This document shows positions 16,085 to 16,384 of a DNA stretch of 19,706 nucleotides, piece by piece. The stretch lies in the IMG/VR virus record IMGVR_UViG_2617270940_000004, positions 1-19,706 of that record; one strand, 5' to 3'. The first letter of the stretch is position 1. Every line of letters begins with the position of its first letter. The translations under genes were made by a program, and so were the position numbers. The notes below the pieces were generated by a model. That model saw only the letters and a list, made by a program, of their open reading frames with translations. It ran no database searches and was not told where the DNA came from. The DNA is from a virus (Duplodnaviria > Heunggongvirae > Uroviricota > Caudoviricetes).

Positions 16085-16100
16085 CTGTTTATACATACAG
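16085..16100. promoter_or_regulatory. LexA-box-like site (CTGT-N8-ACAG), putative SOS operator
   Basis: CTGTTTATACATACAG matches the CTGT-(AT-rich)8-ACAG pattern of enterobacterial SOS boxes; ~18 nt upstream of the 16118 start codon. Confidence 0.5.
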
Positions 16101-16117
16101 TGTATAAGAGGAAAAAA

Positions 16118-16384
16118 ATGGGCGGAAAAGACTCAAGCTATCAGATCGTTTACAGAGGTGAGACGCTCGAAAACTTTAAACCGGGGCAGTATGTCTTCTT
16201 TCAACGAGCGAAGGAGTATGGCGGCGGATATTGGTTGGGCAGGACTCATGAAGATGGGTTCGAGTTTTTGCTGGAGGAGCCAACCTCGCTGGGAAGAGGT
16301 TTTGAGTTTCTGATAACTCACTCGAGCGTGGAGGCCAGATTTATGGAGTTCGTCGACGATGCGGACGACTTCAAACTCACCTAA
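16118..16384 (+). CDS. Hypothetical small protein (88 aa)
   Basis: ATG 16118 with AAGAGG 6 nt upstream; ORF track GTG start 16100 lies inside the LexA-like box. Confidence 0.5.
   Translation: MGGKDSSYQIVYRGETLENFKPGQYVFFQRAKEYGGGYWLGRTHEDGFEFLLEEPTSLGRGFEFLITHSSVEARFMEFVDDADDFKLT

What the first reader, a model, noticed from the sequence alone, without database searches (positions are those of the whole stretch)
16085..16384. LexA-box-like site directly upstream of a small hypothetical gene
CTGTTTATACATACAG fits the CTGT-N8-ACAG SOS-box pattern with an AT-rich spacer and sits between a family B site and the ribosome-binding site of the 16118-16384 gene. That gene would then be induced by DNA damage or by ssDNA entry during transfer, as many plasmid and prophage accessory genes are. 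It is the only such site I could find in the window.
Basis: partly seen in the sequence, partly recalled or inferred. Interest (0 to 1): 0.5.

Follow-up and report, generated by a model that had tools for sequence, protein, structure and literature searches.

The report
LexA-repressed promoter of small phage gene
A binding site for LexA, the bacterial DNA-damage repressor, lies on the promoter of a small uncharacterised gene of an SSU5-type phage-plasmid, and the same site-gene pairing recurs in about ninety other phage and plasmid loci, so the gene is very probably switched on by DNA damage.

Summary
CACTGTTTATACATACAGTG (16083-16102) is the only CTGT-N8-ACAG in the window. It scores 22.6 bits on a LexA matrix; the next best site scores 11.7, and 0 of 2000 simulated windows reach 22.6.

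The window is an SSU5-like phage-plasmid of E. coli, not a conjugative plasmid. In 93 of 96 loci that encode a homologue of the 88-aa gene, a strong LexA box lies 28-61 nt before its ATG or at the head of its short operon. This includes relatives at about 30% identity and P22-like and P2-like prophages. The three exceptions are explained.

A conserved TTGAC(C/T) lies 17-18 nt upstream of most ATG-proximal boxes. The first box hexamer then serves as the -10, as in the annotated SOS promoter p95 of coliphage 186. It is the only strong LexA box in the whole 103-kb SSU5 genome.

The protein (phrog_2100) has no known family or fold. It has a conserved acidic C-terminal tail that resembles clamp- or SSB-partner-docking peptides. 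Its function remains a hypothesis.

Side discovery: an ISKox3-like insertion sequence inserts almost exclusively into the 8-bp spacer of LexA-box-like sites. This includes this very box in the window's closest relatives.

The parts
16060..16065 (+). -35 hexamer TTGACC of the inferred sigma-70 promoter
   Evidence: TTGAC(C/T) is conserved 17-18 nt upstream of most ATG-proximal boxes, in SSU5-like, P22-like and Serratia-type loci whose other flanking sequence differs. Phage 186 p95 has the same layout.
16083..16088 (+). -10-like hexamer CACTGT, which is also the first hexamer of the LexA box
   Evidence: It lies 17 nt after TTGACC. In phage 186 the annotated p95 -10 signal is the first hexamer TACTGT of the LexA site. 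The match to TATAAT is weak (A2 and T6 only), and the consensus promoter scan did not call it.
16083..16102 (.). LexA operator (SOS box) CACTGTTTATACATACAGTG; core CTGT-N8-ACAG at 16085-16100
   Evidence: score and chance. (conservation in 93 of 96 loci). (it is the empty site of an ISKox3-like insertion that duplicates exactly its 8-bp spacer in relatives H1 and H11).
16106..16112 (+). Shine-Dalgarno AAGAGGA
   Evidence: Read from the sequence. A purine-rich GGTG/GAGG element at the same distance is seen in the homologous loci.
16118..16384 (+). 88-aa protein of family phrog_2100 (homologue of SSU5_103), the regulated gene
   Evidence: AF2 model: four strands, one helix and a disordered acidic tail. 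No Pfam, NCBIfam or PADLOC family, no PDB sequence match and no fold match.
16017..16029 (.). family-B palindrome AAACAAATTGTTT (context, not part of the LexA unit)
   Evidence: One of 8 exact copies in the window and 14 in SSU5, all intergenic. Its extended motif points towards ydfZ (inference).
15728..15931 (-). divergent neighbour ydfZ (PF14001)
   Evidence: It is absent from the P22-like and P2-like loci that keep the box, so it is not the partner of the box.
16390..16461 (+). 72-nt hairpin made of two inverted family-B units, directly after the stop codon; possible 3' boundary of the transcription unit
   Evidence: Predicted -30.5 kcal/mol, z = -9.4. There is no T-run after it, so it is not a canonical terminator. 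Only sub-threshold generic-hairpin hits in Rfam.

Best explanation
This is a working LexA operator placed on the promoter of a small phage gene.

Inferred mechanism: in undamaged cells a host LexA dimer occupies CACTGTTTATACATACAGTG. That sequence overlaps the -10 element (CACTGT, 17 nt after the -35 TTGACC) and the predicted start site near 16095, so RNA polymerase is excluded. DNA damage activates RecA, LexA cleaves itself, and the promoter fires. A short leader of about 23 nt carrying the Shine-Dalgarno sequence is made and the 88-aa protein is translated early in the SOS response.

What is shown: the protein belongs to a compact phage-borne family that is tied to LexA control wherever it occurs.

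Most likely role (inference, about 45%): it acts on a conserved host replication or repair hub rather than on a phage-specific repressor. It would dock through its conserved, disordered acidic C-terminal peptide, which resembles beta-clamp-binding and SSB-tail motifs. Because this is the only strong LexA site in an SSU5-type genome, it is also the only direct LexA-operator input found for these damage-inducible phage-plasmids.
For: Site quality: 22.6 bits, inside the range of known sites; 0 of 2000 simulated windows reach it.

Conservation: of 96 loci with a homologue, 78 have a box of at least 17 bits 28-61 nt before the ATG and 15 have one at the head of a short operon. There are no other sites of at least 17 bits in 463 kb of flanking DNA. 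Among 39 distinct box sequences, ACTG and CAG are invariant while the spacer varies. All five of the most distant family lineages sampled keep the box at -34 to -42.

Promoter geometry: TTGAC(C/T), 17-18 nt, then (T/C)ACTGT recurs in otherwise unrelated flanks. It equals the p95 promoter and LexA site annotated in the phage 186 record.

Operon context: in P2-like prophages the gene is third in a LexA-boxed operon, after a small ORF and a DinI homologue.

Whole-genome context: SSU5 (103 kb) has one strong box (26.1 bits, before SSU5_103); the next best is 13.1. No LexA/CI/UmuD-like S24 peptidase was found in it by tblastn. SSU5-like elements are induced by mitomycin C or ciprofloxacin (PMC9600943, PMC9928086).

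Host-target argument: the family is 50-70% identical across phages with different immunity systems. It coexists with a self-cleaving HTH+S24 repressor in P22-like SE1.

Tail: an invariant Leu and a nearly invariant Phe sit in a low-confidence acidic tail. Endings are [Q/N/D]-[F/L/Y]-x-L-[F/T] or Q-x-E-L-P-F. Compare the clamp-binding motifs QLSLF and QLSLPL of Hda (PMC5397184).
Against: There is no experimental binding or expression data for this site.

The -10 is poor (CACTGT, 2 of 6 matches), and the consensus promoter scan found no promoter here.

My matrix and heterology-like index rest on sites recalled from memory, although they recover three independent known sites.

Many of the 96 loci are close relatives, so the number of independent lineages is nearer ten.

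Relatives in which an IS splits the box persist, so LexA control of this gene is dispensable for plasmid maintenance.

The protein's function is unsupported by any homology or fold. The window's own tail ends DDFKLT, a weak version of the motif.

A clamp inhibitor would harm P22 and P2, which use host Pol III (established knowledge).
Confidence: 0.85

Rival explanations
1. The 88-aa protein is the LexA-controlled antirepressor that triggers induction of SSU5-type phage-plasmids. It would be functionally analogous to Tum (186), GfoA/GftA (Gifsy) and AntC (N15): SOS derepression makes it, it binds the plasmid-prophage repressor, and lytic genes switch on.
For: It lies behind the only strong LexA box in the whole SSU5 genome. 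No S24-type self-cleaving repressor was detected there, and the candidate regulators are an HTH-like 90-aa protein and a FljA-like protein. SSU5-like elements are damage-inducible. The protein is small, lies outside any obvious immunity region and is LexA-controlled, as the Gifsy antirepressors are (PMC3121763). The gene is present in 447 plasmid records, mostly non-mobilizable elements of about 105-115 kb.
Against: A profile search finds no homology to any ORF of Gifsy-1, N15 or the 186 SOS operon. The family is highly conserved across phages with unrelated immunity systems. It coexists with a cleavable C2 repressor in P22-like SE1 and with a separate small first-gene ORF plus DinI in P2-like operons. 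That pattern fits a conserved host target better than a repressor-specific binder. However, Gifsy-type antirepressors can act in trans and can sit in phages that do not need them.
Confidence: 0.2
2. The palindrome is a chance or non-LexA feature, for example a binding site for a phage regulator, a weak bidirectional terminator, or merely a preferred landing site for an insertion sequence. On this reading the gene is not SOS-regulated.
For: CTGT-N8-ACAG alone is expected 0.26 times per window. The terminator scan flags the minus strand of the palindrome followed by a T-rich run. An ISKox3-like element recognises exactly this kind of sequence.
Against: The 20-mer score is never reached in 2000 simulations. 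The box keeps its position before this gene family in 93 of 96 loci, and there are no other strong sites in 463 kb of flanks. The hairpin has only 6 pairs, 3 of them G-C, and no minus-strand gene ends there. IS targeting explains insertions, not conservation of empty sites.
Confidence: 0.04
3. The box mainly controls the divergently transcribed ydfZ gene (15931 to 15728, minus strand), or both genes.
For: The box lies in a 186-bp divergent intergenic region.
Against: The box is 152 nt from the ydfZ start but 16 nt from the other gene's ATG. The box travels with the 88-aa gene in P22-like, P2-like and other prophages that have no ydfZ. The family-B unit at 16017 is oriented towards ydfZ and is the likelier control element for it.
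Confidence: 0.05
4. The protein is an SOS modulator that acts on RecA or LexA (DinI-, PsiB- or gp7-like) rather than on the clamp or the SSB interactome.
For: It is co-transcribed with a DinI homologue in P2-like prophages. It has an acidic C-terminus, as DinI has (established knowledge).
Against: There is no sequence or fold similarity to DinI or to any solved structure. It occurs together with DinI in one operon rather than replacing it.
Confidence: 0.15

Closest known systems
SOS promoter p95 and the tum-orf97 SOS operon of coliphage 186
   Same: The geometry is the same: -35 (TTCACA there, TTGACC here), a 17-18 nt spacer, and a -10 that is the first hexamer of a 20-bp LexA site, followed about 30 nt later by the start codon of a small phage gene. 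In P2-like relatives the family member lies in the equivalent operon just after gene A.
   Different: The products are unrelated. There is no similarity to Tum or Orf97. Here the gene stands alone in a phage-plasmid.
LexA-controlled dinI-antirepressor-irsA operons of the Gifsy prophages (GfoA, GftA; PMC3121763)
   Same: A small phage protein outside the immunity region is under direct LexA control, and the element has no recognisable self-cleaving repressor.
   Different: There is no detectable homology to any Gifsy-1 ORF. The family is far more conserved across heteroimmune phages than antirepressors are, and it coexists with a cleavable repressor in P22-like phages.
LexA-regulated antirepressor AntC of the linear phage-plasmid N15 (cited in PMC11652158 and PMC3121763)
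   Same: It is a precedent for plugging a phage-plasmid into the SOS response through a LexA box rather than through repressor cleavage. My matrix finds strong boxes in N15 at 21658 and 39562.
   Different: No N15 ORF matches the family profile. N15 does have a LexA-family repressor.
C-terminal docking peptides: beta-clamp-binding motif (QLSLF; QLSLPL in Hda) and the SSB C-terminal tip (DFDDDIPF, from my own knowledge)
   Same: The family ends in an acidic, disordered tail with conserved hydrophobic positions. Examples are ...SQLSLF...QLPLF...NFSLF and ...DQFELPF (motif from PMC5397184).
   Different: This is only a resemblance and no binding was tested. The window's own tail (DDFKLT) lacks both the Gln and the terminal Phe.

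Membership tests
LexA operator (SOS box) of the Gammaproteobacteria type | Palindrome CTGT-N8-ACAG with an AT-rich spacer, scoring within the range of validated sites | tested here: met
   22.6 bits against 13.0-26.9 for 20 recalled E. coli sites. Heterology-like index 5.3 against 2.3-11.9. 0 of 2000 simulations reach the score. The matrix recovers the 186, Gifsy-1 and N15 sites.
LexA operator (SOS box) of the Gammaproteobacteria type | Position overlapping or directly downstream of the promoter of the regulated gene | tested here: met
   A conserved TTGAC(C/T) lies 17-18 nt upstream and the box covers the -10 and the predicted start site. The layout is identical to the annotated p95 of phage 186. 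The promoter itself is inferred, not mapped, and the consensus scan did not call it.
LexA operator (SOS box) of the Gammaproteobacteria type | Conservation of the site in orthologous or related loci (phylogenetic footprint) | tested here: met
   93 of 96 loci. Half-sites are invariant and the spacer is variable. No other strong site in 463 kb of flanks.
LexA operator (SOS box) of the Gammaproteobacteria type | Binding by LexA, and lexA/recA-dependent induction by DNA damage | not testable with these tools
   Needs EMSA or footprinting, and reporter assays in lexA(Ind-) and lexA(Def) hosts.
LexA-controlled phage antirepressors (Tum, GfoA/GftA, AntC) | Sequence homology to a characterised member | tested here: not met
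   hmmsearch of the family profile against all ORFs of Gifsy-1, N15 and the 186 SOS region gave nothing below E = 0.1. tblastn against the phage collection gave no hit in those phages.
LexA-controlled phage antirepressors (Tum, GfoA/GftA, AntC) | Small protein under direct LexA control in an element whose repressor is not self-cleaving | tested here: inconclusive
   Met for SSU5: a single LexA box and no S24 homologue by tblastn. Contradicted in P22-like SE1, whose repressor has Peptidase_S24.
LexA-controlled phage antirepressors (Tum, GfoA/GftA, AntC) | Binds and inactivates the cognate repressor | not testable with these tools
   Needs genetics or pull-down experiments.
DinI family | Match to the DinI profile | tested here: not met
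   No Pfam or NCBIfam hit for the 88-aa protein, whereas the adjacent gene in P2-like operons does match DinI (PRK10597, E = 1.2e-13, 51 bits, below NCBI's 111-bit equivalog cut-off).
Beta-clamp-binding proteins (QL[SD]LF / QLxLxL motif) | Motif in a flexible terminal region | tested here: inconclusive
   Many members end in [Q/N]-[L/F/Y/M/I]-x-L-F or Q-x-E-L-P-F, within a low-pLDDT tail. The window's protein ends DDFKLT. Binding was not tested.

The most novel reading that the evidence does not exclude
phrog_2100 is a new class of SOS effector carried by temperate phages and phage-plasmids of Enterobacterales. It would be a small LexA-controlled protein whose conserved C-terminal peptide docks onto the beta sliding clamp, or onto the partners of the SSB tail. 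It would thereby re-route host replication or repair at the onset of prophage induction. In SSU5-type phage-plasmids, which have this single LexA box and no recognisable cleavable repressor, it would be the missing link between DNA damage and induction.
Probability: 0.25. Interest if true: 0.7.

Novelty: new member of a known kind. Interest (0 to 1): 0.5.

Why it matters
LexA boxes in front of prophage genes are a familiar kind of feature, so the site itself is ordinary. Three things are useful.

First, it defines a compact, uncharacterised protein family (phrog_2100, present in 447 plasmid records and in many prophages) whose most constant property is direct LexA control. That makes it an unstudied, phage-borne member of the enterobacterial SOS regulon.

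Second, it is the only strong LexA site in SSU5-type phage-plasmids. These elements spread antibiotic-resistance genes and are induced by DNA-damaging drugs by an unknown route. The site therefore gives a single, directly testable candidate for that route.

Third, the same box is the target of an ISKox3-like insertion sequence that appears to home in on LexA operators. If confirmed, that is an unusual target specificity. It would uncouple SOS genes from LexA in plasmids and phages that also carry resistance genes.

Tried and rejected
- Conjugative-plasmid leading-region reading: rejected. The window is an SSU5-like phage-plasmid, and 178 of the 185 matching plasmid records are typed non-mobilizable.
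- Pfam, NCBIfam, PADLOC and PDB sequence search for the 88-aa protein: nothing. PHROGs gave only phrog_2100, 'unknown function'.
- Profile search of 1.84 billion representatives: 108 hits, all small stand-alone proteins and no informative fusion. The one 1165-aa hit matches a 17-residue stretch.
- Homology to Tum, Orf97, GfoA, IrsA or AntC: none.
- Rfam search around the site: only sub-threshold generic hairpin matches to the 16390-16461 hairpin.
- The consensus promoter scan did not call the inferred promoter. I accept the promoter on comparative grounds only.
- Terminator reading of the palindrome: rejected. The stem is weak and no upstream gene lies on that strand.
- Literature: no paper in the library links SSU5 or pHCM2 genes to a LexA box, and none holds both 'ISKox3' and 'LexA'.

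Full report
WHAT THE WINDOW IS

The 1.7 kb around the finding matches about 185 enterobacterial plasmids, 178 of them typed non-mobilizable. The closest are at 99.9% identity, and Salmonella phage SSU5 is at 85%. Annotation of the relatives shows phage replication, nucleotide-metabolism, terminase and portal genes. The window is therefore part of an SSU5-type phage-plasmid of E. coli, not a conjugative plasmid. The gene at 16118-16384 is the homologue of SSU5_103, an 88-aa 'hypothetical protein'. It is transcribed divergently from a ydfZ homologue at 15728-15931 on the minus strand.

THE OBSERVATION

CTGTTTATACATACAG is at 16085-16100 and is the only CTGT-N8-ACAG in the window. That pattern alone is expected 0.26 times per window, so it is weak evidence.

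I built a symmetric position weight matrix from 20 E. coli LexA sites recalled from the literature. The site list rests on my own knowledge; the matrix was computed. The 20-mer CACTGTTTATACATACAGTG scores 22.6 bits, against 13.0-26.9 for the known sites. The next best site in the window scores 11.7. None of 2000 first-order Markov simulations of the window reaches 22.6.

As positive controls, the matrix ranks first the annotated LexA site of phage 186 p95 (27.6 bits), the site before the Gifsy-1 dinI homologue (24.0) and two N15 sites (24.5 and 21.6).

CONSERVATION, THE DECISIVE EVIDENCE

I fetched 88 loci that encode relatives of the 88-aa protein from viral and genome collections. I added 8 loci for the most distant family members found by a profile search.

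Of these 96 loci, 78 have a box of at least 17 bits starting 28-61 nt before the ATG; the mode is -35. Another 15 have one at the head of a short operon, 220-602 nt upstream. Three have none. The three exceptions are explained:
- In L010 an insertion sequence has split the box.
- In L069 the contig ends before the expected position.
- L090 is a truncated gene remnant.

No other site of at least 17 bits occurs in the 463 kb of flanking DNA. Among 39 distinct box sequences, positions 2-5 (ACTG) and 16-18 (CAG) never vary, while the spacer does. Members at roughly 25-35% identity, from five lineages, still carry boxes of 20.7-28.2 bits at -34 to -42.

Many loci are close relatives, so the number of independent lineages is about ten rather than ninety. 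They include SSU5-like phage-plasmids, P22-like phages of the SE1 type, where the gene sits between the ea genes and xis/int, Serratia-type prophages, a prophage region in an IncF plasmid and P2-like prophages.

PROMOTER ANATOMY

When the loci are aligned on the box, TTGAC(C/T) appears 17-18 nt upstream of most ATG-proximal boxes, in flanks that otherwise share nothing. In the window it is TTGACC at 16060-16065, then 17 nt, then CACTGT. The first hexamer of the box thus serves as a weak -10 (A at position 2, T at position 6). The predicted start site, near 16095, lies inside the operator.

This is exactly the layout annotated in the phage 186 record for p95, described there as 'SOS-dependent transcription of SOS operon'. 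There it is TTCACA, 18 nt, then TACTGT, which is both the -10 and the first hexamer of the LexA site.

The consensus promoter scanner did not call this promoter. The promoter is therefore inferred from comparison, not shown.

In P2-like prophages such as Cartapus, two overlapping boxes precede a 62-aa ORF, a DinI homologue, the family member and a 203-aa ORF. This operon occupies the place of the 186 SOS operon.

WIDER CONTEXT IN THE PHAGE-PLASMID

The whole 103-kb SSU5 genome has a single strong LexA box, 26.1 bits at 88009, before SSU5_103. The next best site scores 13.1.

tblastn with LexA, lambda CI and UmuD, whose sequences I recalled from memory, finds no S24-type peptidase in SSU5. The annotated regulator candidates are a 90-aa HTH-like protein and a FljA-like protein.

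SSU5-like elements are reported to be induced by mitomycin C and ciprofloxacin (PMC9600943 and PMC9928086). A review names LexA-dependent routes only for GIL01 and N15 (PMC11652158). I found no paper linking SSU5 or pHCM2 to a LexA box. The gene is present in 447 plasmid records, mostly elements of about 105-115 kb from Klebsiella, Enterobacter, Salmonella and Escherichia.

WHAT THE PROTEIN MIGHT DO

It matches PHROG 2100, 'unknown function', and nothing in Pfam, NCBIfam, PADLOC or PDB sequences. All named homologues are 'hypothetical'. A profile search of 1.84 billion representatives finds only 108 small stand-alone relatives.

The profile has no match in Gifsy-1 (GfoA, IrsA), N15 (AntC) or the 186 SOS operon. 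It is therefore not a detectable member of the known LexA-controlled antirepressor families.

Two facts argue for a conserved host target rather than a phage-specific repressor:
- The family is 50-70% identical, with invariant residues, across phages of unrelated immunity.
- It coexists with an HTH+Peptidase_S24 repressor in P22-like SE1 and with a separate first-gene ORF plus DinI in P2-like operons.

The tail carries a nearly invariant Phe and an invariant Leu. It ends in [Q/N/D]-[F/L/Y]-x-L-[F/T], or in the distant branch in Q-x-E-L-P-F. This resembles the beta-clamp-binding motifs QLSLF and QLSLPL (PMC5397184) and the SSB C-terminal tip (my own knowledge). It is a lead, not a test. The window's own tail, DDFKLT, is a weak version.

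I put about 45% on a host replication or repair hub binder, 20% on an antirepressor or induction trigger for the phage-plasmid, and 15% on a RecA/LexA modulator. The rest is unknown.

AN UNEXPECTED SIDE RESULT

In the window's closest relatives (H1 and H11; their 88-aa proteins are 100% and 98% identical to the window's) a 1316-bp ISL3-family element, annotated as ISKox3-like, is inserted exactly in this box. The layout is CACTGT TTATACAT | IS | TTATACAT ACAGTG (TACTGT on the left in H11). The whole 8-bp spacer is duplicated as the target-site repeat, so the window holds the empty site.

The same element has split the boxes of two other family members with different spacers. One is on a 55-kb MOBP conjugative plasmid.

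I scanned for the IS end in viral contigs and found 33 copies. All lie next to an 8-bp AT-rich repeat preceded by CTGT or a one-base variant of it, and all 17 reconstructed targets score 18.9-27.1 bits as LexA boxes.

With metagenome contigs added there are 91 distinct left flanks. Of these, 73 have exact CTGT at -12 to -9, and most of the rest differ from it by one base (CTGG, ATGT and similar). Of 35 reconstructed targets, 32 score at least 17 bits.

Published ISKox3 insertions selected for capsule loss have 8-bp AT-rich repeats, but their flanks are not given (PMC12057282). No paper in the library contains both 'ISKox3' and 'LexA'.

The element therefore appears to target CTGT-N8-ACAG, that is, LexA-operator-like sequences. 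Whether it reads the DNA sequence or bound LexA cannot be told from sequence. For the present finding this has two consequences. It independently classes the site with LexA boxes. It also provides natural alleles in which the gene is cut off from its SOS promoter.

VERDICT

The site is a new member of a well-known kind. The regulated protein family and the IS targeting are what make it worth following up.

Noticed in passing
window 16083-16102 (empty site); L110 and L111 898-2213; L010 1657-2972; L108 2654-3969; L112-L236: A 1316-bp ISKox3-like ISL3-family insertion sequence inserts in the 8-bp spacer of CTGT-N8-ACAG sites and duplicates the spacer. It has split this very LexA box in the window's closest relatives. 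Of 91 distinct insertion sites in viral and metagenome contigs, 73 have exact CTGT at -12 to -9. Of 35 reconstructed targets, 32 score at least 17 bits as LexA boxes. No paper in the library mentions both ISKox3 and LexA.
   Followed up: yes
window 9806, 10777, 11975, 15701, 16017, 16394, 16445, 18009 (13-bp sites); SSU5 has 14 copies: The 'family B' palindrome AAACAANTTGTTT, usually extended to TTAAACAANTTGTTTTC-N7-8-GTTATTA, occurs only in intergenic DNA. It often lies 12-40 nt before the start codon of a gene, on the side opposite the GTTATTA arm. It looks like the operator set of a phage-plasmid regulator. The same unit precedes the LexA promoter in some P22-like phages such as L021, L022 and L029.
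   Followed up: partly
window 16390-16461: Two inverted family-B units form a 72-nt hairpin (-30.5 kcal/mol, z = -9.4) between the 88-aa gene and the DUF1380 gene. No T-run follows it. Rfam gives only sub-threshold generic-hairpin matches.
   Followed up: partly
window 15929-15931, minus strand: In relatives, the ydfZ homologue is annotated with a start that corresponds to an ATA codon here (...AGGAGAAAACG ATA AAG ACG...). The first in-frame ATG/GTG/TTG start that the ORF listing finds in this frame gives only 50 aa.
   Followed up: no
L094 46897-47343 (SSU5_121); L001 26190-26714: The 'transcriptional repressor' of SSU5-like elements belongs to the FljA family (PF03614, repressor of phase-1 flagellin; E = 3e-81). 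This is an unusual candidate regulator for a phage-plasmid.
   Followed up: no
L057-L068 and L085, about 2400-2434: In P2-like prophages most loci (9 of 13) have two LexA boxes overlapping by 5 bp (starts 15 nt apart). They precede an operon of a 62-aa ORF, a DinI homologue, the phrog_2100 member and a 203-aa ORF. The 62-aa and 203-aa proteins show no similarity to Tum or Orf97 of phage 186.
   Followed up: partly
L108 (OW848976.1, 55-kb MOBP/MPF_T plasmid) 4001-4324: A family member also lies on a conjugative plasmid. There its LexA box has been split by the IS, and its C-terminus is extended and altered.
   Followed up: partly
window 16470-17023: The genes downstream of the 88-aa gene are annotated DUF1380 in relatives (not confirmed by my own Pfam scan) and match DUF5983. 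From my own recollection, unchecked, these families also occur in plasmid leading regions and CP4-type islands. Whether LexA-driven transcripts read through the hairpin into them is unknown.
   Followed up: no
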